DNA from: a virus | DNA: 64,000 nucleotides | UHGV virus genome: UHGV-1374671 | Direction: 5' to 3' (one strand) | Part shown: one piece after another, positions 231-62,331 of the stretch | How positions within the stretch are numbered: position 1 is the stretch's first letter | Layout: each line of letters opens with the position of its first letter | Made by a program: the position numbers and the translations under genes | Notes under the pieces: model-generated | The model's input: only the letters and a program-made list of their open reading frames with translations | Database searches by the model: none | Told to the model about the DNA's origin: nothing

Positions 231-250
231 ATTATACTCCAAGTATAAAA
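231..250 (+). promoter_or_regulatory. dyad motif copy 0 (ATTATACTCC AAGTATAAAA), near-perfect 9-bp inverted repeat
   Basis: AGTATAAAA is the reverse complement of TTTTATACT; same motif family as copies at 16073, 31275, 44574, 46083 and 61077. Confidence 0.5.
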
Positions 251-253
251 TCG

Positions 254-279
254 AAAGGAGCTCTTCGGGGCTCCTTTTT
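254..279 (+). terminator. rho-independent terminator-like hairpin
   Basis: aaaggagc / tcttcggg / gctccttt gives an 8-bp stem, followed by tt. Confidence 0.6.
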
Positions 280-324
280 GTTTCCACGCTGCGCCTATTT
301 TAAAAAGAAACGACAGGGCTGACT

Positions 325-5721: not shown

Positions 5722-5731
5722 GGTACATACA

Positions 5732-7078
5732 ATGAGTTTGATAGGAAGAACGAGTACAGACGGTACCTCCAGTGCGGTTGTTCTGGATGACGGTACGCTT
5801 TGGGTTGTCGGTAATAATGGCTACGGACAGCTCGGCCTTGGCGACAAGACAACCCGCTCTGATTGGACCCAGGTAGGTACCGACACTGACTGGGCCAAGG
5901 TATACATGGGCGGAAGTAACCTCTTTGCGATTAAAACCGACGGTACCTTGTACGGGGCCGGGCGCAATGCGGCCGGTACACTTGGACTTGGAAGCGCGGA
6001 TGTAGAAGTCCTTACGTTAACCAAGATCACCAGTGCACCGAAGACACTGGATATCGCTGCATCCACTTTTCAGACTTTATTGTGCGGAATGGGTGGAGGG
6101 TCTGTACATGCTGCCGGAGACGCGAGTATGTATCTTGGATACAGCGATGTTACGGAAGGCAATGTTACCACTTTTGCGAAGACCCTGAGTGGCGCGTATA
6201 AGAACGTATTCATAGTCTTAAACAACAAGTTTGGATTGGAGTACCCGGGATCGCTGGAGGTTTGGGGTAACGGCAACAACGGGCAGCTCGGGAACGGTAG
6301 TACAACACCCATAGCGACACCGACAGCTTTCTTCAGTGACCTTACGTTTTCTGATATCAGTGCACAGACCGCCAGTATCAGTACGTTTTTGATCTTTGGT
6401 GTTACCACTGGTGGTGATCTGTATTACTGGGGTAAACAGAACACAGGTACCATTGCGTCTCCTACTTTCCTGATGAGCGGGGTGAAGGCTGCTGCCAATA
6501 GACATATCATCAAGACAGATGGCTCTTTGTGGGCTCAGGATGGCTCCGATAGCACAACGTTCAAACAAGTAGACCCGGGTCCCTGGACTGCCGTGCATGA
6601 CGGAGGTACCGCTGTCATACTGGAGAAAGAAGACGGCACTTTATGGGGGTACGGCTCCTCCAATACGGCATTAGGCCTCACAGAAGAAACTACGGTGCCG
6701 ACCCTGCTGCCTATCTCAACAGTACCTTCCGAGTATGGGATCATTGTCGGGGATTTGTTGGTATACACTGAAGGGGAAGATGACACAGAAAACAAGGACA
6801 ATGCTGTTTGGCATGTACTGAGCGATAGTCCGGCGATCGCATTGGACCGTGCCAACGGGGAGCTTCAGAAGGTCATACTGACGCAGGATTGCACTTTGAC
6901 TGCGCCAATCTTGACTAAAGACAGGTCCACGCTGCTGTTACAGGTAACCACATCATCGAACAGTACGCAAGTCATTGTCGGAGGCACCATTGTTGTGCAG
7001 GAGCTCGGTATTCACCAAATCGGCTGGTTCTTTGATGGTTCTACTACCCGTAGATATCCAACTGTGAAGGTGGTGTAA
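5732..7078 (+). CDS. RCC1-repeat (beta-propeller) protein
   Basis: Repeated GxNxxGQLGxG blades (GNNGYGQLGLGD, GRNAAGTLGLGS, GNGNNGQLGNGS); RBS gagg upstream. Confidence 0.7.
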   Translation: MSLIGRTSTDGTSSAVVLDDGTLWVVGNNGYGQLGLGDKTTRSDWTQVGTDTDWAKVYMGGSNLFAIKTDGTLYGAGRNAAGTLGLGSADVEVLTLTKITSAPKTLDIAASTFQTLLCGMGGGSVHAAGDASMYLGYSDVTEGNVTTFAKTLSGAYKNVFIVLNNKFGLEYPGSLEVWGNGNNGQLGNGSTTPIATPTAFFSDLTFSDISAQTASISTFLIFGVTTGGDLYYWGKQNTGTIASPTFLMSGVKAAANRHIIKTDGSLWAQDGSDSTTFKQVDPGPWTAVHDGGTAVILEKEDGTLWGYGSSNTALGLTEETTVPTLLPISTVPSEYGIIVGDLLVYTEGEDDTENKDNAVWHVLSDSPAIALDRANGELQKVILTQDCTLTAPILTKDRSTLLLQVTTSSNSTQVIVGGTIVVQELGIHQIGWFFDGSTTRRYPTVKVV

Positions 7079-8157: not shown

Positions 8158-8170
8158 ACAGGAGGCCAAT

Positions 8171-10122: not shown

Positions 10123-10142
10123 CCCAATAAAGGAGATCTACA

Positions 10143-11797: not shown

Positions 11798-11856
11798 GTG
11801 GTAAGCACTTCAAATTGATGTAACGCGGAGCCTGAAATAAAGAGGACACACACAAC

Positions 11857-13168: not shown

Positions 13169-16100
13169 ATGGATGATATCAACGTGACGCCTGTTTTGGC
13201 GGACAGCTCCACAGTGGAGAACATTCAGGTTCGCCCGCAGCGTCCTCCCAAAACGGCAGCTGACTGGGTGCGCGACATGCGCATGTCTCCTGAAGTGAAC
13301 AAGACCACTGTCGGTGTGGAGACGGACCGGATAACTCCTGAGTTGCTGATGGCCACGTCGTCCAAGCTGCTTGGTATCTCCAGACGGGAGCAGGATCCGG
13401 ATCCCAAGGATTCCCTGCTCTTCCAGCGCTTCTACGGGCCGGCCGAATACTTTGCAGAACACATTCTGCGGGACGGCAACAAGGTGGCCCGTAACCTGCT
13501 GTGGAAAGCAACCAACAAGGGCAAGATTGACTTCGTACCGTCAGGAGCATTGGATCAGCACGTCAGCGATGTGTTCTACAGCAGCAAGCTGGCCCAGATG
13601 ATCGACGGGTCGTCTCCTTTGGAAACGGTGGACGCTTCCTTCAAGACCACCCGTATCGGCGAGGGCGGCGTCGCAGATGTGCAGTCGGCTCCTGATGAGA
13701 TGCGTACAGTGCAGCCTTCCTACTTCGGATACCTAGACTCCGTGCGCTGCTATTCGGACGATACCGAACTCATGACCAAAAATGGCTGGAAATTCGTTAC
13801 CGATATTACGGAAGACGATGAGCTTGCATGTTATATGGACGGCAGGTTGGAGTACCACAAACCAACCGCATTGAATGTATACGACTACAAGGGCAAGATG
13901 TACGGATACAAAGGTACGCATATCTCGTACCTGGTGACACCGAATCACCGGATGCATTCCAGATGTTATGGAGAACTCAGAGATGGGCGTCCTTGTGGTT
14001 ATAACATTCGTACAGCTGAGAGCATTCACGGTAAGAACAGGGTTGTAGATTCTGCCTGCCATTTGCCGTTACTGTGCAATGAGGATCAGAAATACTTTGA
14101 GCTCCCTGTGGTAGGTCCTAATCTGAAGAAAGAGCAGGTTCATGGCAATCCGCCAATGGGCGCCAGCTTGAAGAACGTGGACAAAGTGGACATCGTGAAG
14201 TTTGCCGAGTTCCTCGGATGGTACCTGGCTGAGGGTTCCTATGTGATCAATGAAACCAAAGGATACTACCGCGTTGATATTGCACAGTCCCCGGAAGTCA
14301 GTGCGGAAAACTACGAGCATATCAGACAGCTGATAGAATCTCTTCCCTTCAACGCAACCAATCCAGGTGCCGAGGAAAAAGCAAAAAGGGGCGGGCATGC
14401 CTTGTCCATCGCCAGAAAACAGCTGACCATATACGTCAGTCAGTTTGGAAAGTGCGAAGACAAGTACATACCTGAGTGGATTTTCTCAGCTCCGTTACAG
14501 GCCCGCAAAGCGTTTTGTTGGGCCCTTCTGCAAGGAGATGGACGGGAACAGAGACATCTCTGCACAAAGTCAAAGCGACTGGCTACTGACTTTGCCCGCC
14601 TGCTTTTTGAATTGGGTGAATCTGCCAAAGTATACCACGAAAAAGAAACCAGATATGAAAACCATCCTGGTATCTGGAATGTTTACTGGCACACCCGCAA
14701 AGAACGTCTTTTGGCTGGAAAAACACATAAGCACAAGGAAGGTGAATATTTCACTGAAGACTATACCGGCAAAGTGTACTGCCCGACCATACCTGGCGGT
14801 CTGGTGTACTGCCGCAGAGGCGAAAAGAGCGTTGGTTTCTGGTGCGGTAATAGTCCGGAGAGGTTACGCGTCGGATTGGATATGTATATGACCAAGAATG
14901 TGGTCAAGGGATCCGATGGAAAGCTGTACCAGAGATTCATCAACGCGCGTACCGGCAAGGAGGAGCTGGTTGACTCCGTAACAGCTTCCAGATCCATTGT
15001 GGCAGCGCCTGAGATGATGGACGCCGATACCAAGTCCATCTTCGCTCTTGGTGGTCGTACTGGCGTACGTATCGTACCCAAGGATAAGGTTGATTATTAT
15101 TTACCCAGAGCCGACGATGCGTACAGCATGTCGTCCAATATGGTGCCCATGTTCAATGGTGTGAAGGAAATGCGCCTGCTGATGGGATGCCTGCATCCGG
15201 GTACTCCGTTGATCACCATATCGGCGAAGAACGAGATCAACATCAAGCCGGCGAAATCCATTGGCAAGAATGCTTATGGAGTGCCTGGCTGCGATGCCAA
15301 AGGCAAGTCGCTGGGGTATCTGATCCGTAACAGCATTGCCAAGTTTCCCCAGAAGCGCAAGTGGTTCAAGAAGGTCGTGCTGATGTCGGGGCGGTCCCTG
15401 ATCACCAGCTACGATCACAGATGGCCAGTGCTGCGGGACGACAAGCTGGAGCTGGTGAACGCATCCGATCTTCAGCCCGGGGACAAGGTGCTCAGATCCA
15501 CGTTCAAGGATCTGCCCAATCGACGCACCTTTTTGCGCGGCGTACTGGTGAACAAGGATGTTGCCACGCTGCTGGGCTGCATCGTAAGGTCGGTCACCAA
15601 ACCTGACCCGGACAAGCTCCGGGTGGTGTACCAGCCTTCTCAGAAGAAGTTCATCGAGGCAGCCATCGAACGGCTCAAACTGGAGAACTCCCGCTTCTAC
15701 GCCAATGCCGGCGAGAAGTGCCTTGCCATTCATGACAGCAACTTCATCCAGTGGGTGGAGAAGGAGATCTGTCTGGAGCCGGAAGAGCGCAAGGTCCCCA
15801 CTGTGATTCTCAGTGCGTGCCTGGACATTGCGTCTCACTTCATCGACGCTTACACGGCCGACACCACCAAGGTCGGCATCGACAGCAACGAGGACATGTG
15901 GATCCTGGATATCCCCAGCATGATCTGCCGTGACGGTCTTGCGTTGCTGCTTGCCAGAATGCAGACGGATACCCTGTACCGGGATGCTGTGCGGGCAGAC
16001 GGAGTCAATCTGGCGTTGAAGCTGGTGGAACAGACCCCCACCTTCGGGGATTCCATTGTGGACGAGGTGAAAATTATACTCGAAGTAGAAAAGGTCCCGC

Positions 16101-19100
16101 TCATGATTGACATCGATATCGATGACAACATGTATGCGACCGCCAATGGAATCATCACACACAACTCCAAGTACCCGTTGCAGGCCATCTCCCTGCTGGA
16201 GCGGGAAGCTCCTTTGGTGAGAGGGCTGGATGAGGCGTCCGGCAGGGACATCCCGTCGTTGGCAGGCAAGTATCTCGGCGCCAGATTCGCCAACCAGGGC
16301 GGCACCGTCACCGCTGTGCGCAAGGACCGCATCGACGTCGTCTACGACGACGGCACCAAGGGCAGCGTTTCCCTGTACCAGAATTTCCCGATGAACGCCA
16401 AGGGGTACATCACCAACACGCCTGTGGTGAAAGCGGGACAGTCCTTCAAGAAGGGAGATGTATTAGCGGCGTCGAACTATACAGACGACAAAGGCGTGGC
16501 GGCCATCGGCAAGAATCTGAGATCCGGCTGGCTGTCCTGGAAGGGCGGCACCTATGAAGACGCTGTTGTAATCTCCGAATCAGCCGCCAAGAAGTTGACC
16601 AGCCGTACCATGTACAAATCGGCAGTCGACCTCGACAAGACAGTCAGTTTGGGAAAGAAGAACTACGTCTCCTGGAAGCCGTCCGAGTACACCAAGGACC
16701 AGCTGTCGGCGCTGGATGACAACGGAATCATTAAGCCGGGTTCCGTGCTTCGCAAAGGAGACCCGATGATTCTGGCGGTGCAGACATCCGAACCCTCTCC
16801 CGGGACGCTTGGCAAGCGCGTGCTGACGGATATCTCCGAGACCTGGGAACACGACCATCCGGGTGTGGTCACTGACGTGGTCAAGACCAGGAAGGGTGTG
16901 AAGGTGTTTGCCATTGTGGAAGCACCTGCGGAAGTGGGGGACAAGGTAAGCGGGAACTTCGGCAACAAGGGAGTAGTCTCGCAGCTTGGTAGAGAGTCCC
17001 AGGAAGAACAGGACGACGAGAACCAGGACTTCCAGATCCAGAAGATCGTACCGGACGCCATGATGCCCATTGGAGAGGACGGCAAGCCTCTGGATCTGCT
17101 GTTCAGTCCTCTTGGGCTTATCTCCCGTACGAACGCTTCCCAGATCCACGAGGCTCTTCTGGGCAAGATCGCCCGTAAGACTGGAAAACCGTTCGTCATG
17201 CCGGCCTTCTACAAGGGCGACCTTACGGAGTTCGTGGAGAACCAGCTGAAACAGAACAAGGTCAGCGACACGGAAGACCTGACGGATCCTTATACCGGCA
17301 GGAAGATCCCCAAAGTGCTGACCGGTGTGTCGTACATCTACAAGCTCAAGCACCAGGCCGAGTCCAAGCTGTCCGCACGCGGTACTGCCGAGTACACTGC
17401 CGAGGGCACGCCGGGTGGTTCTGGACTCACTGGGAGCAAAAGGTACGGAACTTTGGAGCAGTCCGCGATGGTCGGCCACGGTGCGTTTGACAACCTGCTT
17501 GATGCGAAACTCCTGCGTGGCCAGTCGAACTCGGATTTCTGGCGCAGCATCCGTACTGGAGAGATCCCGACGATTCCTGGAGAGCCCCTGGTGCACAAGA
17601 AGTTCTTCGCCCACCTTACAGGCTCCGGTGTGAACGTGCGCAAAACCCCGAAGGGCATCAGCGTGTTCTCGTTGTCCAACGACGATGTGAAAGAACTTGC
17701 CGGCCCCCGTGAGCTGAAATCCAAGGACACCTACGAAGCCAAGACATTCCGTCCCATCGATGGAGGACTCTTTGGTCAGGACCTGTTCGGCCCCAATGGA
17801 GACCGCTGGGCATACATCCAGCTGGACGAACCTCTGCCGAACCCTGTAATGGAGGAGCCTCTGGCGCGTCTTCTCAGAATGTCCACCAAGGACTTCATGG
17901 CAGTGGCCGCCGGCAAGGCTGAAGTGAATGGAATGAAATCCTCCGCCGACATCAAGGAACGCCTGTCCAGGATCAACTTGAAGGCCGAGGAACAGCAGGC
18001 CAAGCAGGAGTTCAAGGACGCCCCGATGTCTAAGAAGGACGCGGCGCTGAAGCGTTATCGGGACATCGCCCGCATGGCTGCGAATGAAGTGTCCCCTGAC
18101 CAGTACATGCTGGATAGGATTCCGGTGCTGCCTCCTGTCTTCCGTCCTGTCAGTACGCACAACGGACTGACCATGGTGGCCGACAGCAACTACCTGTATG
18201 CGCAGATGCTGGACGCCAGAGACGACGCCCGGGAAGCCCGCAACCTGCCCAAGGAATACCAGCAGCAGGCCAGGGAAAACCTGTACCGAAGCTGGAAGGA
18301 GCTGACCGGCATGTACGAGCCCGAGAACGTGAAGCTGAAGAACAAGCACGTGCGGGGGCTTCTGAAGTGGGCGCTTGGTGACAGTCCAAAATGGTCCGCG
18401 TTTCAGAGAAAGGTATTGGGCTCCACGGTGGACACGGTAGGCCGTGGTGTTATCACTCCGGATCCGCGCCTGAAGCTGAACCAGCTCGGCGTTCCTCTGC
18501 CGATGGCGTTGGGCATCTATGAGCCGTTCGTTGCTCGATCCATGGTCAAGCAGGGGTACTCTCCTGTGGAAGCCATGAAGATGATCAAGGTCCAGGACAA
18601 GCGCGTGATACCAGTGCTGCTTAACGTGATGAAGAACAGCCCTGTGCAGCTGAATCGGGCACCTTCGCTCCACAAGCTGAACATCATGGGATTCGAGCCT
18701 GTGCTCACTGCCGGGCACGCTGTCCGGGTAAACCCGTCCATTGTGGTGCCCTTTGCGGCGGACTTCGACGGCAACTGCTGCGATTTTGATAGTGTAATTT
18801 TCCTAAAATTATCAAAATCTGCGCTTGAAAAAACTGCTTTTATGTGCTATGTTGATCATAGTAACAAACCCGAACAAAACAAGGAGGTTTCTATGATCAC
18901 GGAAGACACAAGAGTCGTGGTGTTCAACCCGGATGAGACTGACCCGGATACTGTGTACTGCTCTATGAAGATCGGGGAGTTCCCGCGTAAGGGGGTGCCG
19001 GTGAAAGACCGGAACGGTGCTTTGGTGTACCCGGTTCCAGAAGGGGTAAGCGTACTGTCCTGCGACCCAGTTACAGGTGCTCCGAAGTTCTGCCCTGTGT

Positions 19101-20542: not shown

Positions 20543-20562
20543 CCCGAAGTGAGGCACAGCAT

Positions 20563-20751
20563 ATGCAGAGTATGAGACATCTCTACGGACTCGACAAACA
20601 GGCGGCTCAGAAGAAACAGGCCTTCGCCAAGAAGCTCGCCGACTTCATGCGTCACCAGCGCATGGAGGCGCAGCAGAAAGCCGCTGCTGCCGTCGAACGC
20701 GGTAAGAACAACGTCCTGGCCATGATCCGTCAGGCCTGCAACAGCAAATAA
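20563..20751 (+). CDS. small basic protein (62 aa) sharing N-terminal RHLYGL motif with the next gene
   Basis: MQSMRHLYGLDKQAAQ compared with MSEKYRHLYGLGKAAV; RBS gaggca. Confidence 0.5.
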   Translation: MQSMRHLYGLDKQAAQKKQAFAKKLADFMRHQRMEAQQKAAAAVERGKNNVLAMIRQACNSK

Positions 20752-20762
20752 GGAGCGCGGCA

Positions 20763-29916: not shown

Positions 29917-31797
29917 ATGAAGAAACACTTTCTTCCTGAGAGCTTCGATTTTGGGATGCCGTCCGTTGAGCTGATCGGAGTCGGTACCAAAGGACTGGAC
30001 AAGACTGCCATGGTGAAGCGGGCCAGCGCGTTCGACGATGTGATCGGGGATCTGAAAAAGAAACCCAATCGCGAGTACCTGCATGTGATCACCACCGGCG
30101 CGTTTGAGAAGTACGGCGCCAACGCCAACTGTTTCATTGGTGAAACCCCTGTCCTGACCACACTGACTGGGAAACGCAAAAAGATCAAGGACATCAAAGA
30201 GGGCGATCTGGTGCTGACCGGCAAAGGTCGTTTGCGTCCTGTTACCAAGGTCTATGTCAGGAAGTATGCCGGAGAGATCATTGAGGTATGGGGTACGGAA
30301 TGGAAAAGCAAAGTATCCATGACAGCAGAGCACCCGGTGCAGGTGGTCAACCCCGGTAACCGGGAAACGCTGGACGGCAAGTTCGTGAAAGCGTGTACGC
30401 TTACGATCAATGACGAACTGGTGGTGCCGGCCATGGACCATGTTAAGAGCGGTAATAAGGAGTTTCACGACAAAGTCGCTCTTGTCAGATCTCGAAATGC
30501 CAAATGTTCCACGGTGTTCAATCTTGAGGTGGAGGAAGACCACACGTACTGCATTCCGTTCGTGGTGCACAACTGCGACGGCTGGAATGGTGAGTCGTTT
30601 GATCTGGAATTCCCGCATCCAGAAGACCAGAAAAAGAAAAAGATCACGTTGGACGGCGGGTTGTCCAAGTACCATGACGATACCTACATGAAGAACGGTG
30701 CCGTGTACCAGGAACACAAGACCAAGCGTGCCGGCGTCGATCCCAGCGGGGAAGTCGTAGCTGCACGGTACAACCCGATCATGAAGCGCGGTGAGTTAAT
30801 TATCAGCGTGGACACTGGCAAATGGGCTTCCCGCCTGCAGAAGAAAGCGCAGGGCAAGGATATCTATCTCAGCATCGGGGCCGACGTGCCGCATGACATT
30901 TGTAACATCTGTGGACGCATCGCCAAGACCGCAAGCCAGCACTGCGATCACTTCAAGAAGCACCGTGGCCAGGTGTACGACTCCGGTGTGCGTGCCTGTG
31001 TGATGAACGACTCCCCGAGTTTCTACGACATCAGCGGAGTCGACGTTCCGGCTGATCAAATCGCTTTTGTTCTCAGCAAGGTGGCCAGCGGCTCTACGGC
31101 CAAGGAGGCCGCGCTGGAAGTGCTGAGCGTCTGCACTCCCCGTCGCCCGATGCTGTACACCAAAGCGGCTGCCATTTTGGACAAGCTCTCCAAGATGGAG
31201 AAACAGCTGGTCGGCATGGTGGAGGGAGACAAACAGGAGCCCGCTTTCCATGACGATGACGAAGTCGCCAAAGATTTTATACTCAAAGTAGAAAACTTCC
31301 CCAGCGACGAAATCATCGACAGCTGTAATCGGAAAGGCATCCTGTTGTCCCCCGGCATGCTGTTCAAGATCATGGGCAAGGACTGCACGGAGGACTCCGA
31401 CAAGGAGATGCTGTGCGGACTGGATGACGACTGCTGCGGGGATTGCTCCACGATGTTCGAGGACATGGAAGAGGATGAGTGCTGCAACGAGGAACTGCTG
31501 GACGGCAGCTTTGACGAGCACCTCCCGGCTGACCTGTCGTTGGACGCCATCCTTGAGAAGTTCGTACCGGAGTTCGGTGTCACCCAGCCGGCTATGCAAG
31601 GCAAGATCATCACCGTCACCATCACCGGGCGCAAGGGGAAAGAGCCCAAGCAGGAGTCCAAAGAGGCTTCTCTTAATAAGCAGGCACAGGAAGCTCTCCG
31701 GCGCACGTATGCCAGGTACGTCATCAGTTTCGCCGAACGAAATGACGACGCAACCTGTTACAATGCGCTGAGAAAAATAGCAGTTTACGGCAAATAA
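29917..31797 (+). CDS. intein-containing protein of unknown function (a prohead-protease role is only a guess from gene order); acidic Cys-rich C-terminus
   Basis: 626-aa ORF; extein junction FEKYGANAN|...|CDGWNGESF; C-terminal DDDCCGDCSTMFEDMEEDECCNEE. Confidence 0.65.
   Translation: MKKHFLPESFDFGMPSVELIGVGTKGLDKTAMVKRASAFDDVIGDLKKKPNREYLHVITTGAFEKYGANANCFIGETPVLTTLTGKRKKIKDIKEGDLVLTGKGRLRPVTKVYVRKYAGEIIEVWGTEWKSKVSMTAEHPVQVVNPGNRETLDGKFVKACTLTINDELVVPAMDHVKSGNKEFHDKVALVRSRNAKCSTVFNLEVEEDHTYCIPFVVHNCDGWNGESFDLEFPHPEDQKKKKITLDGGLSKYHDDTYMKNGAVYQEHKTKRAGVDPSGEVVAARYNPIMKRGELIISVDTGKWASRLQKKAQGKDIYLSIGADVPHDICNICGRIAKTASQHCDHFKKHRGQVYDSGVRACVMNDSPSFYDISGVDVPADQIAFVLSKVASGSTAKEAALEVLSVCTPRRPMLYTKAAAILDKLSKMEKQLVGMVEGDKQEPAFHDDDEVAKDFILKVENFPSDEIIDSCNRKGILLSPGMLFKIMGKDCTEDSDKEMLCGLDDDCCGDCSTMFEDMEEDECCNEELLDGSFDEHLPADLSLDAILEKFVPEFGVTQPAMQGKIITVTITGRKGKEPKQESKEASLNKQAQEALRRTYARYVISFAERNDDATCYNALRKIAVYGK
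30130..30573 (+). mobile_element. intein 4 (148-aa mini-intein, no endonuclease)
   Basis: CFIGETPVLT...GDLVLT (A), TAEHP (B), FNLEVEEDHTY (F), FVVHN|C (G). Confidence 0.75.
31275..31295 (+). promoter_or_regulatory. dyad motif copy 2 (TTTTATACTCAAAGTAGAAAA)
   Basis: Sequence match; sits in frame in the coding sequence (DFILKVEN). Confidence 0.45.
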
Positions 31798-33088: not shown

Positions 33089-33104
33089 GGGAAGGAGGTC
33101 TGTA

Positions 33105-33557
33105 ATGGACTCGAATATGGATGCCCTTACAAAGCTGGCATCTGAGCTTACCGACCGCGTCGAAGCTCTTGAGAAGCAGAACGCACAGCTCTGCTCCGAG
33201 AACAAGGCGCTGAAGGAAAGCCAGGTGAAGCAGGCGGCTGCCACCGTGGTCTCGGAAGAGGTTGCGGCGAAAACCTGCGAACTGCTGGTGAAAGCCGGCA
33301 GCATCCAGCAGGATCAGGTGGAAGCGACCAAGCAGGCGTTTCTGCACGATCCGGAAGCAGCGCACCGCACAATTGAGGGTTTTGTTGACGCTCTCACTCA
33401 GGAGAAGGCAGCATCGAGCTCGGAAGAGCAGGAAGCTGACGACGTGAGTGGAGGTCGTCTGGCGGCTCCGTTGAGCGGTCAGGAAAAGACCGCCGAGGAT
33501 TCATGCCTCGACCGGATGTCCCAGATCCTCAACATGGGACACAGCAATCGCTGGTAA
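33105..33557 (+). CDS. coiled-coil protein
   Basis: RBS ggaaggagg; ATG 33105 is in frame with track ORF 33024. Confidence 0.55.
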   Translation: MDSNMDALTKLASELTDRVEALEKQNAQLCSENKALKESQVKQAAATVVSEEVAAKTCELLVKAGSIQQDQVEATKQAFLHDPEAAHRTIEGFVDALTQEKAASSSEEQEADDVSGGRLAAPLSGQEKTAEDSCLDRMSQILNMGHSNRW

Positions 33558-36183: not shown

Positions 36184-36246
36184 CTGACCCGTAAGCACTG
36201 GTAAAGTGCATTTTATTTTAAAGCTAAATACCTCAAGGAGGATAAC

Positions 36247-44475: not shown

Positions 44476-45405
44476 ATGGCAAATCCGTTTACATCATTGG
44501 AGTGCGCGATCCGGTATGACAATGCCAGGGTGCTGACCTGGGAAATGCTGCCGGGCGCCAACTATCCTCCTGATTTTATACTTCAAGTAGAAAATTCCAG
44601 GGCCGGCGGCCCATGGGAAGTACTGGCCACCGGATTGCGGGATGTATGCGCATTTGTGGATACGAGGCGCAGAAACTACAACAAGCAGATGAACGAGTAT
44701 TACCGGGTGCGTTTACTGTCCAAATGTACCGGTGACAACTGGGTGTCTGAAGTTGTGGAGTCCGGTAATTCCAAAGTGTACCCTTTCAGCACCGAAGCTC
44801 AGAATGTACTGAAACAGGTAGAGAAGGCTATCGAGTTGTCAGGATGCACCGGGGTCCTTCTGAAAAAGAAGACCTGGGGCTGCCGTTGCCCTATGTGCAC
44901 GGACTTTGACAATCAGTCCACTGTGAATGAGCACTGCCCGAACTGTTTCGGAACCGGCATCGACGGCGGTTTCTACAATGGAATAACCATGAACGTCATA
45001 AAGGATTCCATTAACTCCAGTGACGGGCCTACCGCGCATGGATACGGACAGTCCGAGATTGTTAAGGCCAGGTGCATTGCGTATCCCTGGATTCACTTTG
45101 GGGACATCTGGTGCGAGGACATCACCAACAACCGGTTCTACATCCTGGATGCCACGCCGACGTCGTCCTACAAACACATTCCGCTGATCTACTCGATCAC
45201 GATGTCCAGACTGGAGATGACGGATGCGCTCTACACTCCTCCGGCGGATGACAAGGTTCTTTTGAAGGATGTGTGGGAATCCTCGCAGGTGGAGTACACA
45301 CCGGAAACTTTGAAGAAGGAAGAAACACAGTCTGCGATCATGGCCGGCAATCCGGTGCCTCCGCCTCCGAGCGACTGGGATAAAGGACTGGGTGAATGTC
45401 TATAG
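44476..45405 (+). CDS. hypothetical protein with zinc-ribbon-like Cys cluster
   Basis: CRCPMCTDFDNQSTVNEHCPNCFG; also contains dyad motif copy 3. Confidence 0.6.
   Translation: MANPFTSLECAIRYDNARVLTWEMLPGANYPPDFILQVENSRAGGPWEVLATGLRDVCAFVDTRRRNYNKQMNEYYRVRLLSKCTGDNWVSEVVESGNSKVYPFSTEAQNVLKQVEKAIELSGCTGVLLKKKTWGCRCPMCTDFDNQSTVNEHCPNCFGTGIDGGFYNGITMNVIKDSINSSDGPTAHGYGQSEIVKARCIAYPWIHFGDIWCEDITNNRFYILDATPTSSYKHIPLIYSITMSRLEMTDALYTPPADDKVLLKDVWESSQVEYTPETLKKEETQSAIMAGNPVPPPPSDWDKGLGECL
44574..44594 (+). promoter_or_regulatory. dyad motif copy 3 (TTTTATACTTCAAGTAGAAAA), followed by palindrome GGGCCGGCGGCCC
   Basis: Sequence match; sits in frame (DFILQVEN). Confidence 0.45.
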
Positions 45406-46082: not shown

Positions 46083-46101
46083 TTTATTGAAAAGTAGAAA
46101 A
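46083..46101 (+). promoter_or_regulatory. dyad motif copy 4 (CTTTATTGAAAAAGTAGAAAA, left half degenerate), intergenic upstream of the sheath candidate
   Basis: AAGTAGAAAAC as in copy 2; followed by hairpin gcgcgagcag...ctgctcaagcgc spanning the ATG. Confidence 0.4.
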
Positions 46102-55304: not shown

Positions 55305-55323
55305 ACAAGGGGCGGTAACAGTA

Positions 55324-56234: not shown

Positions 56235-56235
56235 T

Positions 56236-57924: not shown

Positions 57925-57935
57925 GGAATACCGGC

Positions 57936-58742
57936 ATGGAAAATCTATTTGATCGAATTGTCAAAACCGTACCGCCGCCGAAGCCGGAAGACGTGGCTAA
58001 GCTCAACGAATTGGATGCAGCAAAGCAGCCCGACCCGACAAAACCGCTTCCGTTGAAGGACCTGGTTGCACGGTGGCAGAAAAACCCGACTTCGGAGGAC
58101 ACTTCCGAGATCCTTCATCAGCTGCAGCCTACCATCAAGTCAGCTATGACCAGTTACGCTCCTGGCATGGATAAACAACTGTCCATCAAGGCGGCCACAC
58201 TTGCGCTGGATGCAATGAAGACATACAATCCGGATAAAGGCGCCGATCCTACTACGCATGCGTTTCACAATCTGAAACGACTCAGCCGGCTCAGCGCCGA
58301 CAGGAACAGCATCATTCCGCAACCGGAGGGGGCCAGGTTGGAGACTCAGCGGTTGATGGAACTTGCGGCGCGTTTCGAGGACGAGAGGGGTCGTGAGCCC
58401 TCCTTTGGAGAGCTGGCGGACATGACAGGCCTGAGCACCAAGCGCGTTGCCAAGCTGATGAGCGGCAATACAGTCATCAACGACACCAGCAGTCTGTCGG
58501 AGGAATCCAAGGAGTCCACGTTCACTCAGAAGGATCTCACTGACGAGGACTATTTCGAGTATGTGTACTCCTCTGTCGGACCTGTTGATCAGAAGATCAT
58601 GGAATGGACGTCAGGAATGCATGGCAGACCGCAGCTGAGCAACGGGGAAATCGCCACTAAGCTGGGGATCAGCGCCGCAGCGGTGAGCCAGCGCAAAAAC
58701 AAGATCATGCAGATGATATCGGATGTGAGGGCCGTGCTATGA
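57936..58742 (+). CDS. sigma-70 family sigma factor
   Basis: Region 2-like IKSAMTSYAPGMDKQLSIKAATLALDAMKTYNPDKGADPTTHAFHNLKR and region 4.2-like HTH IATKLGISAAAVSQRKNKIMQMI; RBS aagga. Confidence 0.65.
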   Translation: MENLFDRIVKTVPPPKPEDVAKLNELDAAKQPDPTKPLPLKDLVARWQKNPTSEDTSEILHQLQPTIKSAMTSYAPGMDKQLSIKAATLALDAMKTYNPDKGADPTTHAFHNLKRLSRLSADRNSIIPQPEGARLETQRLMELAARFEDERGREPSFGELADMTGLSTKRVAKLMSGNTVINDTSSLSEESKESTFTQKDLTDEDYFEYVYSSVGPVDQKIMEWTSGMHGRPQLSNGEIATKLGISAAAVSQRKNKIMQMISDVRAVL

Positions 58743-59104
58743 GTCAAGACGCCGCTATTCTGGCCGCTATAACCAGGGAAGAAGTTCAGGAGATCGATCG
58801 TCTGCTGTGGCCCATCATGTTCGGCACCGAGAAAGAGGTCGAAGAACCCAGCGCTCTTGACTCCACCATGCTGAACCGCGAGGAGGCTGACAAGATAGAC
58901 CAAATCACCGTGGCCACTACGTTGGGAGGAGAGGAGCTGCACGCAGCTTCCAGAGCATACTCCATTGTCCAGGAAGGTCAGCGTGTCCGCAGAGACGTCA
59001 ACATTGCCAGGGCGTCCAGAAAGGATCTGTGGTTCTCCCAGTTGGGCATCATGTTCAAACGGAAACGCCAGCTAGAAGCAAAACTGACCAAGGAGAAGAA
59101 ATGA
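58739..59104 (+). CDS. hypothetical protein
   Basis: ATGA overlaps on both sides; 121 aa. Confidence 0.5.
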   Translation: MSQDAAILAAITREEVQEIDRLLWPIMFGTEKEVEEPSALDSTMLNREEADKIDQITVATTLGGEELHAASRAYSIVQEGQRVRRDVNIARASRKDLWFSQLGIMFKRKRQLEAKLTKEKK

Positions 59105-59472
59105 GCAAGGACATTCTGATGATACCAGACCAGTCCGGCGATGTTTCGTTCTCCATATTGGGAGAGCAGAACGATACCGGGTTGTCGCTGCTGCAGCGTC
59201 TGTACGTGATTCTGCTGTCTCCCAGCGGGGATGCTTACAGAGGCGGTTCCGGCATGTCGCTGCTTCAGTTCGCAGAGGGTGCCAACACCCCGCCTGATTC
59301 TGTGTTGAACTCGATGCTTGCTATTGCCTGCGCCAACGCGCTGAACCAGCTGGACGACGAGGACGCCCGTCATGTTTCGTCGTTCTCAGGTACGGCGTTG
59401 GATGCCAATATAACATTCGTGCTGGAGCTGACGGATGGAACCACAGTGAAAGGACTGCTGACAAATGCCTGA
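59101..59472 (+). CDS. baseplate W / gp25-like protein candidate
   Basis: About 124 aa, directly upstream of a J-like gene; position only. Confidence 0.4.
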   Translation: MSKDILMIPDQSGDVSFSILGEQNDTGLSLLQRLYVILLSPSGDAYRGGSGMSLLQFAEGANTPPDSVLNSMLAIACANALNQLDDEDARHVSSFSGTALDANITFVLELTDGTTVKGLLTNA

Positions 59473-61012
59473 TACGTATATAGAACCTACACAGACTGAA
59501 TTCGATACCGCCGAACAGGTGGCCATCGATGTCGTGAACACCAATTCTCCTTCCGTGATGACCAAAACCGGTTCTGTGATCCGTGAGCTGGTGGTCCGGC
59601 CGCTCTCGTACCTGTTTGCCTGGTCGTCGAGCAACATAGCCAATCTGCAGGAAAAGTCCAGTGTCGAATATTTGATGACGTCGCAGGCCACTGACAATCC
59701 GCTGGCTGACCAGGTGGCGTCCAACTACTTCGTAACACGTAACACCGGTACGAGATCGAAAGGAATCATAACGCTGACGCTGAACACCGGGGTCACCAGA
59801 ATCGCCCAGGGATCCACATTCCAGGCCGGTGATCAGAAATTGATCACTGATGATCAGATTATTGTCACGTCCACTGAGATGACCGACGTTATCGAAGGCG
59901 TCACTTATGTGAAGTCCATTCCTCTTGGAGACGCGTACCTGGCGAACATCCCCGTGGTGGCTACCGCCGTCGGGAAGATCGAAGTTCCGGTAGGAACCCC
60001 TGTCGAAGTGGAGTTCATCAACGGCGTCGTCCTGGACGCGGAGCTGACGTCGGCGGTCACTGGCGGTTCCGACACTGAAACGGATGCATCCATGATGAAG
60101 CGAGCCAGGTACAATACGGCGGAGTCCGGCATCGGCTCCTATTTCGGGTTGAAGAAGAAGTTCTCAAAAGCTCCGGTCACTGTACTGGGGCTGTCCGTGG
60201 TAGCAGGCGAGGACACCCCGATGTTCCGCGCCAGATACAACAACGTGAATGTCAACCCTGGAGGGTTCGTGGACACGTACCTGAAGACACAGGTGCAGCC
60301 GTCCACCACCTCTGTGGTCGTCACTGCCACCAAAGGGTCCGACGGTCGCTATTCAGCACTCCTTACCGGAGACACCTGCTCCGGGTTCTACAGAGTCGTA
60401 TCCGTTGTCGCCGGCGGCGAGTATGTGGATTCCTTCTCGGTCGAGTTCGGAACGGCCAACAATATGTCCAACGCCGAGGGCAGCAGACTGTCCGTGGATC
60501 AGACGGCCACTGTCACGTTCACCAGTACAGCGACGGACGCTACGCTTGAGACCAGCATCATGGTCGAATACATGCCAGGCATCAGCCAGCTGCAGGAATA
60601 CATCGACAGCGACAACGAGCGCTTCATCGGACAGGACATCAAGGCCAAAGCCGCCGTACCTGTTGTCGTATCGTTCGACTGCGCGGTGCGCGGACAGGAA
60701 GAACTTTCCGAAGCCGACGTGGCGCTGCTGAAGCAGGCGATTGTGGATTACGTGAACAGCATCGAAGTCGGCACCAAAACCGTAAACTTCTCCGACATCA
60801 GAAAAGCCTGTCAAACCGTGCTGCCGACTGCGGAGCTGCGACTGCCGTGCATCATGTCGGCAGAGATGGTTCTCAAGGACGGTACGCTGGACACCTTCTA
60901 CACCAGAACCGGCATCCTTGACATCGGCAATCAGGCCAACGAAGGCTACTGGGATCCGCTGATGTGCTTCTTCAGCTTAACCTTGGACAAGGTCAGGATT
61001 TCGCAGATATGA
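59465..61012 (+). CDS. baseplate J-like protein candidate
   Basis: 515 aa in a W-J-I-like run before a fibre gene; position and size only. Confidence 0.4.
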   Translation: MPDTYIEPTQTEFDTAEQVAIDVVNTNSPSVMTKTGSVIRELVVRPLSYLFAWSSSNIANLQEKSSVEYLMTSQATDNPLADQVASNYFVTRNTGTRSKGIITLTLNTGVTRIAQGSTFQAGDQKLITDDQIIVTSTEMTDVIEGVTYVKSIPLGDAYLANIPVVATAVGKIEVPVGTPVEVEFINGVVLDAELTSAVTGGSDTETDASMMKRARYNTAESGIGSYFGLKKKFSKAPVTVLGLSVVAGEDTPMFRARYNNVNVNPGGFVDTYLKTQVQPSTTSVVVTATKGSDGRYSALLTGDTCSGFYRVVSVVAGGEYVDSFSVEFGTANNMSNAEGSRLSVDQTATVTFTSTATDATLETSIMVEYMPGISQLQEYIDSDNERFIGQDIKAKAAVPVVVSFDCAVRGQEELSEADVALLKQAIVDYVNSIEVGTKTVNFSDIRKACQTVLPTAELRLPCIMSAEMVLKDGTLDTFYTRTGILDIGNQANEGYWDPLMCFFSLTLDKVRISQI

Positions 61013-62331
61013 ATTGGATCGCCAAAACAAAGTACATACTGGGCAAGTTCTGGGTCACGTTATTTGGTGACTCTGATTTTATACTTGGAGTAGAAAAGCT
61101 CCATGCACTGTTCGGGCGGCTGAAGGAGAACTCGCTGTTTAACTTCAAAGAAGGCAAAATCTCTCGCAGCAAAGCGTTTAAGCAGGATATAGCCCCGGTT
61201 GTCATCTACATAGACTCCCTTCAAGTCAGGGCTCCTTATTCCTCCGTGGATTCCATCTTGAACGGGGGTACGATTGGGGGGTCACAGCAGAACGCCGGCT
61301 GGGTGGCCGAGTGTACTGCGGATATTGCGTACCCTGACTACCTTACCGATCACGCGGTGGACTTCACCAAAACACTGTTTGCCGGTATTGACTACGAAGT
61401 GAAGGGACGACAGTTCCTGTTCTATGTTGATCCGTCCACAATCGGGTTCCCAACTGTCAAGAGATCTGATCCAGACGGGACGCTGCATGTCTACTATGTC
61501 GTTTTCGGATGGCGTCGCCGCACGTATGCACAGAAGGACGCCGTTGCCGGTTTCCTGGACCCTGCGCTGTCTCCTTACGCGGACAAGGCCTGGGACGTGT
61601 ATATGAACGGCGCGACCTATTACAACACGAAGATGCTGCTCGGCGCCATCACCGGCGCCGTGATCTGCGAGAATGACGGTGTTGTAGATCATCTGTGGCA
61701 GGAACAGGATTACTGGTGCATGCTGGTGGGAGACAAGGTGTACAGCGCCAAGAACGGTATTCAGATCAACTTCGATCACGGCGACGACGTGAAACAAGGG
61801 GACATCCTGTTTGGAAGCATGCGTTTCTACAGCGGACGAGATCTTCCTCCCTATTCCGAGGTTCCTGGAATCCGTGTTCGTACTGATGTAGGCGGGATGA
61901 TCGCACCCAACAACGACACGGCAGCGTACCAGGTGGAAGGAGAGAACATTCTTCCGCTTACCGAGAGCGCTTCCAGGGTTCAGCTGTACAAGGACAGGGC
62001 ATATGAACTGTCCCAGGATCAGAAATGCCCGTATACGTCGATTCCAGCCACTGTGAACCCCTTCAAATTCATCATGCAGGATATGAGACGGGGTCGTGGT
62101 TGTTTTGCAATGCTGACCACCGACAGGCTTCAGAGCATTAATCCTGCCTTGCAGGTGATCCGGGAAGGGATCTGCGCGTCCGGCATCCTCAATGTATTTG
62201 TAAAGGCTGAAGGAGACACCGTAGGGGTCACTGTATCCGACTTCACAGCTGAAACTGGGAATGCGGCGGTGTCTGTGGATGCCACAATTACAATTCAGGA
62301 AGCCTCGGTTGAGGCAAGGGTGTTCATATGA
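61009..62331 (+). CDS. baseplate I-like / tail protein candidate
   Basis: ATGA overlap start at 61009; carries dyad motif copy 5 63 nt downstream. Confidence 0.5.
   Translation: MNWIAKTKYILGKFWVTLFGDSDFILGVEKLHALFGRLKENSLFNFKEGKISRSKAFKQDIAPVVIYIDSLQVRAPYSSVDSILNGGTIGGSQQNAGWVAECTADIAYPDYLTDHAVDFTKTLFAGIDYEVKGRQFLFYVDPSTIGFPTVKRSDPDGTLHVYYVVFGWRRRTYAQKDAVAGFLDPALSPYADKAWDVYMNGATYYNTKMLLGAITGAVICENDGVVDHLWQEQDYWCMLVGDKVYSAKNGIQINFDHGDDVKQGDILFGSMRFYSGRDLPPYSEVPGIRVRTDVGGMIAPNNDTAAYQVEGENILPLTESASRVQLYKDRAYELSQDQKCPYTSIPATVNPFKFIMQDMRRGRGCFAMLTTDRLQSINPALQVIREGICASGILNVFVKAEGDTVGVTVSDFTAETGNAAVSVDATITIQEASVEARVFI
61077..61097 (+). promoter_or_regulatory. dyad motif copy 5 (TTTTATACTTGGAGTAGAAAA)
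   Basis: Sequence match; sits in frame (DFILGVEK). Confidence 0.45.

What the first reader, a model, noticed from the sequence alone, without database searches (positions are those of the whole stretch)
231..61097. Six +strand copies of a 21-bp dyad motif wwTTATACTynrAGTAGAAAA, four embedded in coding sequence
Copies lie at 231, 16073, 31275, 44574, 46083 (degenerate left half) and 61077. The two 9-bp arms are imperfect inverted repeats (TTTTATACT / AGTAGAAAA; copy 0 is the near-perfect AGTATAAAA). A specific 9-mer is expected fewer than once per strand in 64 kb. All copies are in the same orientation. Intragenic copies always sit in the one stop-free frame, giving (D)FILxVE(K/N). Four copies are followed within 3-15 nt by a GC-rich palindrome or hairpin: 254-279, CATCGATATCGATG, GGGCCGGCGGCCC, and gcgcgagcag..ctgctc. 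Candidate meanings are a phage-specific promoter (the TATAAAA-like right arm resembles T4-type late promoters from memory), a site for a dimeric DNA-binding regulator, or an RNA hairpin signal. The phage encodes both its own RNAP and a sigma factor, which makes a dedicated promoter class plausible.
Basis: seen in the sequence. Interest (0 to 1): 0.7.

Follow-up and report, generated by a model that had tools for sequence, protein, structure and literature searches.

The report
Dispersed palindromic protein-binding site, gut phage
A 21-23 bp palindrome recurs about every 14 kb in a ~176-kb human-gut phage and is kept base-for-base, even inside genes, in distant relatives, so it is most likely the docking site of an unidentified dimeric DNA-binding protein acting on transcription, not a promoter or RNA hairpin.

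Summary
The motif is real. Five clean copies lie in the window (230, 16072, 31275, 44574, 61077), against 0 expected. The sixth (46083) is only a half-site. Two more copies flank the window in the same phage, at -10544 and 72203.

The element is a full palindrome, A-TTTT[A/C]TACT-CNG-AGTA[G/T]AAAA-T. All four half-site combinations occur in relatives. The apparent common orientation is a coding artefact: every intragenic copy sits in one frame, and there a T at position 17 would create a TAA stop.

Selection acts on the DNA. In a relative, the 18 arm bases are identical while flanking DNA is 43% identical, and the arms use rare codons.

About half of roughly 19 independent sites are intergenic. 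Several sit 2-12 nt from an intrinsic terminator, or exactly fill the gap between convergent stop codons.

The predicted RNA hairpin is negligible (-0.3 kcal/mol). No -35-like element is conserved, and the base that would be the -10 'A' is the variable one.

Best reading: a dispersed operator or transcription-barrier site for a dimeric phage protein, resembling stoperators and phiC31 conserved inverted repeats. The binder and its function are inferred, not shown. The even spacing (P~2e-4) is not reproduced in relatives.

The parts
230..250 (.). Dyad site, A/A type (AATTATACT CCA AGTATAAAA). Its first base is the last base of the upstream TAA stop codon, and it lies 3-4 nt before an intrinsic terminator.
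   Evidence: The same stop-dyad-terminator layout, with identical arms, is present in relative L211 at 20331 (portal 67% identical, GC 43%). A C/C version is in L213 at 19039.
254..279 (+). Intrinsic terminator hairpin (AAGGAGCTC TTCG GGGCTCCTT followed by TTTGTTT) directly after site 230.
   Evidence: The consensus scan flagged it on the - strand (277..254). The + strand T-run is visible in the sequence.
16072..16092 (.). Dyad site (AATTATACT CGA AGTAGAAAA) inside the fused RNAP beta/beta' gene. It encodes K-I-I-L-E-V-E-K within an intein, about 25 residues before the intein C-terminus ...NGIITHN|S.
   Evidence: (Intein_splicing, E 1.5e-4, below the curated cut-off).
31275..31295 (.). Dyad site (TTTTATACT CAA AGTAGAAAA) in gene 29917-31797, encoding F-I-L-K-V-E-N.
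   Evidence: The arms are 18/18 identical in the L090 orthologue. The site is lost in L141 (GAC TTT ATC AAT GCT GTC GTT), which instead has a new intergenic copy about 5.5 kb downstream.
44574..44594 (.). Dyad site (TTTTATACT TCA AGTAGAAAA) at codons 33-40 of gene 44476-45405, encoding D-F-I-L-Q-V-E-N.
   Evidence: The L141 orthologue is TTTTATATT CCG AGTAGAAAA, with 1 mismatch.
61077..61097 (.). Dyad site (TTTTATACT TGG AGTAGAAAA) at codons 23-30 of gene 61009-62331, which follows the baseplate-wedge gene. It encodes D-F-I-L-G-V-E-K.
   Evidence: The arms are 18/18 identical in L027 (flanks 43% identical) and in L091 (flanks 74%), and 16/18 in L028.
46093..46101 (+). Isolated right half-site AGTAGAAAA in the 59-nt intergenic region, 34 nt upstream of the ATG at 46127. 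It is not a full dyad, and whether it belongs to the family is uncertain.

Best explanation
The motif is a 23-bp palindromic recognition site on duplex DNA, 5'-A TTTT[A/C]TACT CNG AGTA[G/T]AAAA T-3'. I propose it is bound by a dimeric sequence-specific DNA-binding protein of this phage lineage. The binder is not identified; a host protein is less likely.

Sites are scattered through the genome at roughly one per 11-16 kb in this phage. They sit in short intergenic gaps where possible. Otherwise they sit inside genes, always in the one reading frame that turns the site into a tolerable peptide, F-(I/L)-L-x-V-E-(K/N).

Proposed mechanism: the bound dimer acts on transcription as an operator or roadblock. 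It would reinforce or replace terminators at unit ends and convergent junctions. It would also silence or insulate read-through along the ~83-kb rightward structural-gene block while the protein is present.

Shown: the palindromic anatomy, selection at the DNA level, positional conservation with turnover, enrichment in intergenic regions, and adjacency to terminators and convergent junctions.

Inferred: that a dimeric protein binds, that it is phage-encoded, and that binding blocks or regulates RNA polymerase.
For: Anatomy:
- Information content in 21 sites is confined to the 21 bp plus A at -1 (19/21) and T at +1 (17/21).
- The spacer tends to C-N-G, so the whole element is a palindrome around one central base.
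- All four half-site combinations exist: A/A (window 230, L211 20331), A/C (canonical), C/A (L141 7714, L213 286) and C/C (L213 8767 and 19039).
- The palindromic pattern gives 27 hits with 2 or fewer mismatches in 328 kb of related loci, against 0 in shuffles.

Selection on DNA:
- Arms are 18/18 identical in L027 where flanks are 43% identical.
- The arms use rare codons (ATA is 10% of Ile codons, GTA 13% of Val). Given the peptide, the probability of these arms from codon usage is about 0.0013 per site.
- In closer homologues that lost the peptide (P0003, P0004, P0006) the protein tolerates other residues.

Context:
- About 9-11 of roughly 19 independent sites are intergenic, although intergenic DNA is only a few percent of the sequence.
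- Stop-dyad-terminator layouts occur at window 230, L211 20331, L213 19039, L213 286 and (degenerate) L211 650.
- In L214 at 9019 the dyad fills the whole 22-nt gap between two convergent stop codons.
- L141 carries a copy at the position where this phage has a terminator.
- L110 shows stop-dyad-ATG.
- Site turnover is seen: 31275 is lost in L141, which has a new intergenic copy nearby. The site upstream of the portal gene is intragenic in this phage and L131 but intergenic in L212.

A gut bacterium (Waltera hominis) has a dyad with the same arms in the divergent promoter region of a TetR-family regulator. This shows the sequence type is operator-like.
Against: - No binder was found. Pfam found no convincing HTH protein next to the sites in the held 93 kb, apart from the marginal sigma-like protein. 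There is no TetR homologue.
- Operator specificity usually drifts quickly between phages, yet these arms are invariant across relatives with about 45-65% protein identity.
- Diverged lineages have 2-nt spacers (L212; window-equivalent 72203). A rigid dimer would tolerate this poorly unless the protein co-evolved.
- Constitutive roadblocks inside essential late genes would be harmful, so binding must be regulated or leaky. That is an assumption.
- Most convergent junctions in the held loci lack a dyad.
- Enrichment in intergenic regions would be expected for any costly 21-bp DNA element, not only a transcriptional one.
- Only about half of the 176-kb genome could be read.
Confidence: 0.4

Rival explanations
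1. Genome-maintenance site. The palindrome would be bound by a dimeric protein that organises, segregates or replicates the phage chromosome. Examples are a parS/centromere-like site, a matS/NBS-like site, a loop anchor, a replication-fork barrier or an origin element. In this reading the site does not regulate transcription.
For: - The palindrome fits dimeric binding.
- Sites are tolerated inside genes and are positionally conserved.
- Spacing in this phage is strikingly even: gaps of 10.8, 15.8, 15.2, 13.3, 16.5 and 11.1 kb. Monte Carlo gives P about 2e-4 for both minimum gap and coefficient of variation.
- The first site is 188 nt inside the first gene of the ~83-kb co-directional block. 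The last is about 250 nt before the block's end.
- Arm invariance across distant relatives resembles parS conservation (own knowledge).
Against: - Even spacing is not reproduced where relatives can be checked: L141 3.9 kb, L110 0.57 kb, L212 8.75 kb.
- Sites are enriched next to terminators and at convergent junctions, relative to other intergenic space.
- No ParA/ParB or SMC gene was seen in the held 93 kb. The only hit is a weak HTH_ParB match in a protein of relative L213 that this phage lacks.
Confidence: 0.2
2. Phage-specific promoter for the phage's own multisubunit RNA polymerase and sigma-like factor. An N4-like variant is included, in which the dyad extrudes as a DNA hairpin.
For: - The phage encodes RNAP beta/beta' and a sigma-like protein.
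- In the distant relative Arash, beta, beta' and sigma are found in virions (PMC10585845).
- The left arm contains a -10-like TATACT.
- In L212 the layout is terminator, dyad, 80-nt leader, SD, portal ATG. In L058 it is stop, dyad, 56 nt, SD-ATG.
- Promoters inside genes occur in T7 and T4 (own knowledge).
- The stem-plus-3-nt-loop geometry recalls N4 early promoters (own knowledge).
Against: - The would-be -11 A is the degenerate position. C/C sites read TCTACT on both strands.
- Nothing is conserved from -30 to -3.
- The dyad symmetry is unexplained for a sigma-type promoter.
- Sites at convergent stop-to-stop gaps (L214 9019) and between a stop codon and a terminator (window 230, L211, L213) would fire into terminators or into antisense.
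- L110 and L214 6066 leave 0-4 nt before the ATG.
- Other, better-placed promoter-like elements exist after terminators: TATTTTAAA at 296-304 and 36214-36223, conserved in L211.
- The DNA hairpin is only -2.5 kcal/mol and the loop base is not conserved.
Confidence: 0.12
3. Site-specific nicking or cleavage site of a dimeric phage endonuclease. This would be like the localized single-strand interruptions of T5, phiKMV-like and tf/LUZ24-like phages, or a target of a homing-endonuclease relative in this intein-rich genome.
For: - Known nick consensus sites are 9-19 bp, dispersed, indifferent to gene boundaries, and similarly placed in related phages (PMC3517423).
- The motif contains TACT, as does the tf consensus TACT/RTGMC.
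- The genome carries several inteins with LAGLIDADG or Hint endonuclease domains.
- Homodimeric LAGLIDADG enzymes read pseudo-palindromes of about 22 bp (own knowledge).
Against: - Known nick sites are asymmetric and restricted to one strand. This site is a palindrome.
- Enrichment in intergenic regions and at terminators is not expected for nick sites.
- Apart from TACT there is no match to the tf or phiKMV consensus.
- Assemblies run through the sites without breaks, but that says little about nicks.
Confidence: 0.1
4. RNA-level element. A hairpin in the mRNA would serve as a processing, stability or protein-binding signal.
For: - The sequence is an inverted repeat, and most copies are transcribed in the sense orientation.
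- Two variant copies keep pairing through G-U (L141 C8>T; L028 A13>G).
- Several copies lie in 3' untranslated positions just after stop codons.
Against: - The predicted RNA hairpin is -0.3 kcal/mol for canonical copies and 0.0 for 16072.
- The arms are sequence-invariant with no compensatory changes among about 20 sites.
- Inverted copies occur.
- There is no Rfam match.
- The decayed L211 9484 copy changed non-compensatorily.
Confidence: 0.03
5. No DNA-level function. The repeat would reflect a shared peptide motif (D)FILxVE(K/N) or chance.
For: The peptide D-F-(I/L/V)-L-G-V-E is also present in very distant homologues of the 440-aa protein that lack the exact DNA motif (L023-L025).
Against: - Zero copies are expected by chance.
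- Intergenic copies exist.
- The host proteins are unrelated beyond the 7 residues.
- Synonymous positions are fixed on rare codons.
- The closest non-motif homologues vary the peptide freely.
Confidence: 0.01

Closest known systems
Stoperators of cluster A mycobacteriophages (L5 gp71-type repressor sites)
   Same: - Many highly conserved copies of one short site are dispersed across the whole phage genome.
- Copies often sit in very short intergenic gaps next to stop and start codons.
- They are proposed to stop transcription elongation as well as initiation (PMC9283540).
   Different: - Stoperators are asymmetric 13-mers bound by a monomer, and they work in only one orientation.
- This site is a 23-bp palindrome, and about half the copies lie inside genes.
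- No repressor gene or lysogeny module was identified here, and no binding or silencing has been shown.
Conserved inverted repeats (CIRs) of Streptomyces phage phiC31, and the dispersed C1 operators of phage P1
   Same: A conserved inverted repeat (17 bp in phiC31), bound by the phage repressor, is found in many near-identical copies in intergenic regions around the genome. P1 likewise has more than a dozen scattered operators. This rests on my own knowledge (Ingham et al. 1994 NAR for phiC31); it could not be retrieved from the paper library.
   Different: - Those phages are temperate and have identified repressors.
- Their sites are essentially intergenic and associated with promoters.
- Here, sites are conserved inside coding sequences, next to terminators and at convergent junctions, in a phage with its own RNA polymerase.
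parS and dispersed centromere sites (for example the N15 sopC-like inverted repeats), and matS or Noc-binding sites
   Same: These are palindromic sites of 13-16 bp for dimeric proteins. They are scattered over a replicon, are often inside genes, and are strongly conserved across relatives (own knowledge).
   Different: - No ParA/ParB-type genes were found in the readable half of the genome.
- Enrichment at terminators and convergent junctions is not a feature of those systems.
- The even spacing is seen only in this one phage.
Phage RNA-polymerase promoters (T7-type 23-bp promoters; T4 late TATAAATA; N4 hairpin promoters)
   Same: These are conserved motifs of about 20 bp, repeated through a phage genome that encodes its own transcription machinery, and sometimes inside genes. 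N4 early promoters are short hairpins with a 3-nt loop (own knowledge).
   Different: - Those promoters are asymmetric and directional.
- This site is a palindrome whose '-11 A' equivalent is degenerate.
- It occurs at convergent junctions and upstream of terminators, and it lacks any fixed distance to gene starts.
Localized nick consensus sites (T5, phiKMV-like, tf/LUZ24-like phages)
   Same: Short dispersed consensus sites are indifferent to gene boundaries, occupy similar positions in related phages, and have unknown function (PMC3517423).
   Different: Nick sites are asymmetric and confined to one strand. The consensus sequences differ (TACT/RTGMC; CGACxxxxxCCTA/CTCCGG). Nicks were not testable here.

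Membership tests
Sigma70-type or T4-late-type promoter | A -10 element with invariant A(-11) and T(-7). | tested here: not met
   The base corresponding to A(-11) of TATACT is the degenerate position of the half-site. It is A in 17 and C in 4 of 21 sites, and G in L023/L025. C/C sites read TCTACT on both strands.
Sigma70-type or T4-late-type promoter | A conserved -35 or upstream element, and a consistent position upstream of gene starts and co-directional with them. | tested here: not met
   Information content is 0.5 bit or less from -30 to -3. Distance to the next start codon ranges from 0 nt to 4.7 kb. Sites occur at convergent junctions and upstream of terminators.
Sigma70-type or T4-late-type promoter | Transcripts initiate at the site. 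| not testable with these tools
   No transcriptome data exist for this uncultured phage.
T7-type single-subunit RNAP promoter | A continuous asymmetric block of about 19-23 bp, plus a single-subunit RNAP gene. | tested here: not met
   The block is palindromic with a weakly constrained centre. Only multisubunit RNAP domains were found among the window's large proteins scanned; most small genes, and the flanking DNA, were not scanned. The other half of the genome was not readable.
N4-type hairpin promoter | A 5-7 bp stem with a 3-nt loop and a conserved central purine, extruded from supercoiled DNA and read by a T7-like virion RNAP. | tested here: inconclusive
   The stem-and-3-nt-loop geometry is present, and the DNA hairpin is -2.5 kcal/mol. 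The loop base is not conserved, and the phage RNAP is multisubunit.
Stoperator (L5-type) | Many dispersed copies in short intergenic spaces adjoining stop and start codons. | tested here: met
   Examples are window 230, L110 2219, L058, L141 7714, L213 286 and 19039, and L214 6066 and 9019.
Stoperator (L5-type) | An asymmetric site bound by a monomeric repressor, with orientation tied to the direction of transcription. | tested here: not met
   The site is a palindrome, and all four half-site combinations occur. The apparent orientation in genes is explained by avoidance of a TAA stop.
Stoperator (L5-type) | A cognate repressor that blocks elongation. | not testable with these tools
   No binder was identified.
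Palindromic operator of a dimeric regulator (phiC31 CIR-like) | An inverted repeat with a poorly conserved centre, and multiple near-identical copies in one genome. | tested here: met
Palindromic operator of a dimeric regulator (phiC31 CIR-like) | Demonstrated protein binding and a regulatory effect. | not testable with these tools
   This needs EMSA, DAP-seq or ChIP together with a transcriptome.
parS/centromere-like site | A cognate ParB/ParA (or SopB/SopA) system encoded by the replicon. | tested here: inconclusive
   None appeared among the proteins scanned in the held 93 kb. The only hit is a weak HTH_ParB match in an L213 protein with no counterpart found here. Half of the genome is unread.
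Localized nick site | An asymmetric consensus on one strand only. | tested here: not met
   The site is palindromic. The tf and phiKMV consensus sequences differ from it.
Localized nick site | Physical single-strand breaks in virion DNA. | not testable with these tools
   This requires virion DNA.
Intrinsic terminator or REP-like RNA hairpin | A stable GC-rich RNA hairpin (plus a U-tract for terminators); exclusively extragenic for REP elements. | tested here: not met
   The RNA hairpin is between -0.3 and 0 kcal/mol for canonical copies. Half of the sites are intragenic. There is no Rfam match.

The most novel reading that the evidence does not exclude
The dyads could be regulated barrier or anchor points that divide the ~83-kb co-directional structural-gene block into domains of about 11-16 kb. 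The first site lies 188 nt into the block and the last about 250 nt before its end. One version is protein-mediated, bidirectional terminators or insulators for the phage's own multisubunit RNA polymerase. Another is loop or topological-domain anchors. Either would be a form of long-operon control not described for phages. A more exotic variant is that a host TetR-type regulator reads them, because Waltera hominis carries a dyad with the same arms in front of a TetR gene.
Probability: 0.12. Interest if true: 0.8.

Novelty: new variant of a known kind. Interest (0 to 1): 0.55.

Why it matters
This phage belongs to a large, uncharacterised clade of phages from gut and other metagenomes. The portal search found 154 homologues, many on contigs of roughly 140-200 kb. 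Members of the clade carry their own multisubunit RNA polymerase.

The dyad is the first candidate cis-regulatory element for the clade. It is sharply defined and conserved across relatives. It is also directly testable by EMSA or DAP-seq to find the binder, and by Term-seq or dRNA-seq to see its effect.

It also shows a DNA signal overriding codon choice inside essential genes. Coding constraints here made a symmetric site look directional, which is a useful caution for motif-based promoter calls in phage genomes.

Tried and rejected
- **IMG/VR motif scan.** It gave 20 singleton hits, none related by tblastn, so they are chance matches. IMG/VR holds only distant relatives (L023-L025, 36% identity) that lack the exact motif.
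- **GTDB genome scan.** It gave 55 singletons and no relatives. It was useful only as a background rate.
- **Metagenome scan.** Most hits were chance matches or one recurrent bacterial locus, the TetR-family divergent promoter of Waltera hominis. L074/L060 (reverse transcriptase) and L136 (Na/Pi transporter) were judged bacterial and dropped.
- **Mobile 21-bp insertion.** I considered a mobile 21-bp (7-codon) insertion. It is rejected because homologues without the motif have no gap at these positions.
- **'Reversed at terminators' rule.** I first read the A/A-type sites next to terminators as reversed copies, giving a rule of 'forward in genes, reversed at terminators'. I dropped it once C/C sites showed the site is a true palindrome.
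- **Short AGTAGR elements.** I considered these elements upstream of genes as monomeric versions of the site. The enrichment is suggestive (4 in about 1.1 kb of intergenic DNA), but only 46093 matches the full half-site, so this is left open.
- **Downstream GC hairpins.** These were rejected as a shared feature, except the terminator at 254-279.
- **Binder search.** Pfam scans of neighbouring small proteins and a TetR tblastn search found no convincing candidate.
- **Rest of the genome.** Walking the remaining ~80 kb of the genome was not possible under the look-up rules.

Full report
**What the window is.** The 64-kb window is 51-59% GC, and its genes all lie on the + strand. It comes from a ~176-kb phage assembled from human-gut metagenomes (ENA ERZ918879 k127_24148 and ERZ28572640 scaffold_126). 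No close relative exists among deposited phages.

Gene 13169-20542 encodes a fused multisubunit RNA-polymerase beta/beta' carrying inteins. Gene 22601-24907 encodes the C-terminal part of beta'. Gene 57936-58742 is a marginal sigma-like/HTH protein. The nearest named relatives, at about 30% identity in RNAP, are Vibrio phage D69 and Salmonella phage Arash. In Arash, beta, beta' and sigma are found in virions (PMC10585845). The portal search found 154 homologues, many on contigs of roughly 140-200 kb, so this is a large uncharacterised clade.

**Checking the observation.** None is expected in shuffles. Nothing else in the window comes closer than 5-6 mismatches.

- The '46083 copy' is only the right arm, AGTAGAAAA at 46093.
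- Reading outward on the phage's own contigs added two copies. One is an exact copy at window-equivalent -10544, in the gene just upstream of the portal gene. The other is a copy with a 2-nt spacer at 72203, AATTATACT GG AGTATAAAA.
- No copy lies in -20103..-10545.

**The site is a palindrome, not a directional motif.** Relatives recovered through protein homologues and a metagenome motif scan carry the same element.

- All four half-site combinations occur: TTTTATACT...AGTATAAAA, TTTTATACT...AGTAGAAAA, TTTTCTACT...AGTATAAAA and TTTTCTACT...AGTAGAAAA.
- The half-site is therefore TTTT[A/C]TACT, with G at the variable position in more distant lineages.
- In 21 aligned sites, information content is confined to the 21 bp plus A at -1 (19/21) and T at +1 (17/21). 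The spacer leans to C-N-G. Positions -30 to -3 carry 0.5 bit or less.
- A scan with TTTTNTACT-N2-4-AGTANAAAA finds 27 hits with 2 or fewer mismatches in 328 kb of related DNA, against none in shuffles.

All eight independent intragenic sites use the same frame, T TTT MTA CTN NNA GTA KAA AA. In that frame a T at position 17 gives GTA TAA, a stop codon, so genes must carry G there.

**Selection acts on DNA.**

- At the 61077 site, the 18 arm bases are identical in L027 although the flanking 159 nt are only 43% identical. They are identical in L091 (flanks 74%) and 16/18 in L028.
- The arms use rare codons. ATA is 10% of Ile codons, GTA 13% of Val and TTT 28% of Phe. Given the peptide, the chance of these arms from codon usage is about 0.0013 per site.
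- Homologues P0003, P0004 and P0006 are closer to this phage than L027, yet they have different residues at this position. The protein therefore does not need the peptide.
- Sites also turn over. Site 31275 is kept in L090 but lost in L141, which has a new intergenic copy about 5.5 kb downstream.
- The site upstream of the portal gene is intragenic in this phage and in L131, decayed in L211, and intergenic in L212.

**Where the sites sit.** Roughly half of about 19 independent sites are intergenic, although intergenic DNA is only a few percent of these genomes. Recurrent layouts are:

- **Stop codon, dyad, 2-6 nt, intrinsic terminator.** This occurs at window 230, L211 20331, L213 19039 and L213 286. 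A degenerate version is at L211 650, and L110 2790 has a gap of about 12 nt.
- **Dyad exactly filling the 22-nt gap between two convergent stop codons.** This is L214 9019. L213 286 and L211 650 also lie at convergent junctions. Site 72203 lies about 250 nt before the convergent end of the + block.
- **Dyad abutting a start codon.** The gaps are 0 nt in L110 2219, 4 nt in L214 6066, 6 nt in L212 18651 and 16 nt in L141 7714.
- **Terminator, dyad, 80-nt leader, portal ATG.** This is in L212.

In L141 the copy sits where this phage has a terminator. After the terminator at 254-279 there is a separate, conserved promoter-like element, ACGCT..TGCG..TATT(T/G)TAAA, at 286-304. It is shared with L211, so the dyad is not needed as the promoter of the downstream gene.

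**Spacing.** In this phage the seven sites are 10.8, 15.8, 15.2, 13.3, 16.5 and 11.1 kb apart. Monte Carlo gives P about 2e-4 for both the minimum gap and the coefficient of variation. Relatives do not show this: 3.9 kb in L141, 0.57 kb in L110 and 8.75 kb in L212. I therefore treat the regularity as notable but unconfirmed.

**Mechanism.** A fully palindromic 23-bp element with invariant arms, symmetric flanks and a loosely constrained centre is the classic footprint of a dimeric DNA-binding protein.

- An RNA hairpin is very unlikely. Stability is -0.3 kcal/mol, there is no covariation, and there is no Rfam match.
- A sigma-type promoter is disfavoured. The '-11 A' is the degenerate base, there is no upstream element, and many sites sit where initiation would be pointless.
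- The pull towards terminators, convergent junctions and stop/start gaps points to transcription.

I therefore commit to a dispersed operator or roadblock that reinforces or replaces termination and insulates or silences the long late block while its protein is present (confidence 0.4). The binding protein and any effect on RNA polymerase are inferred. No candidate binder was found.

Rival explanations, with confidence:

| Rival | Confidence |
|---|---|
| Genome-organisation, partition or replication site | 0.2 |
| Promoter | 0.12 |
| Nicking or cleavage site | 0.1 |
| RNA element | 0.03 |
| Peptide motif or chance | 0.01 |

**Comparison with known systems.** The closest functional analogues are the mycobacteriophage stoperators. 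Also close, from my own knowledge, are the conserved inverted repeats of phiC31 and the scattered C1 operators of P1. The element fails the defining asymmetry and orientation features of stoperators, so it is not a member of that family. It fits the generic class of palindromic operators, but with three unusual traits:

- conservation inside coding sequences;
- coupling to terminators and convergent junctions;
- occurrence in a phage with its own RNA polymerase.

Localized nick sites share dispersal and positional conservation, but they are asymmetric and confined to one strand.

**Verdict.** This is a real, strongly selected cis element conserved across relatives. The promoter-leaning interpretation is largely wrong, but the 'dimeric regulator' alternative is supported. 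It is a new variant of a known kind, with interest 0.55.

Noticed in passing
window 13169-20542, 22601-24907, 29917-31797: The genome is rich in inteins. The fused RNAP beta/beta' gene has one intein ending ...NGIITHN|S near 16170, which contains dyad 16072. It has a second at residues 1996-2365 with a LAGLIDADG domain. The beta' C-terminal gene has Hint and M23-like hits. The 626-aa gene has an intein-like ...FVVHN|C segment that is absent from the L141 homologue.
   Followed up: partly
window 7537, 13136, 35231, 46093; L090 3995; L213 about 19113: Short AGTAG(A/G) elements lie 20-60 nt upstream of start codons, often just after a terminator. Four fall in about 1.1 kb of true intergenic DNA in this phage. 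They could be a promoter or leader element, or monomeric half-sites of the dyad. Only 46093 matches the full half-site.
   Followed up: partly
window 286-304 and 36214-36223; L211 about 20385-20410: A TATT(T/G)TAAA element follows terminators and lies 20-30 nt upstream of start codons. At 286-304 it is preceded by ACGCTGCGCC, and the whole block is conserved in L211. It is a better candidate late promoter than the dyad.
   Followed up: partly
window 11801-11809 and 36191-36199: GTAAGCACT occurs twice on the + strand, both times exactly 56 nt upstream of a start codon, and never on the - strand. It may be another regulatory motif.
   Followed up: no
L124 4655-4675; L156 6094-6114 (Waltera hominis): A common gut Lachnospiraceae bacterium carries TTTTATACT GTC AGTAGAAAA. 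The arms are identical to the phage dyad. It lies in the divergent promoter region of a TetR-family regulator gene, 20 nt before its ATG. This is probably chance (55 such matches in 596 Gb), and no TetR homologue occurs in the phage DNA held.
   Followed up: partly
L213 9168-9884: Relative L213 encodes a 238-aa protein with two HTH regions (HTH_ParB and HTH_3 at the N-terminus, Sigma70_r4/Crp-like at the C-terminus) immediately upstream of the portal gene. The gene at that position in this phage (194 aa, which hosts dyad -10544) has no such hits.
   Followed up: no
window 33089-33502 and 20543-20762: These apparent 'intergenic' gaps look coding. For example, an ORF starting at the ATG at 33105 encodes a coiled-coil, scaffold-like peptide, MDSNMDALTKLASELTDRVEALEKQN... 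The true non-coding fraction is therefore even smaller than the ORF list suggests.
   Followed up: no
window-equivalent -10732 to 72473 (L209, window, L151): A single co-directional gene block of about 83 kb runs from the gene upstream of the portal gene to a 398-aa gene. Minus-strand genes flank it on both sides. It contains several internal intrinsic terminators (after 230, 35150, 36115 and 48678).
   Followed up: partly
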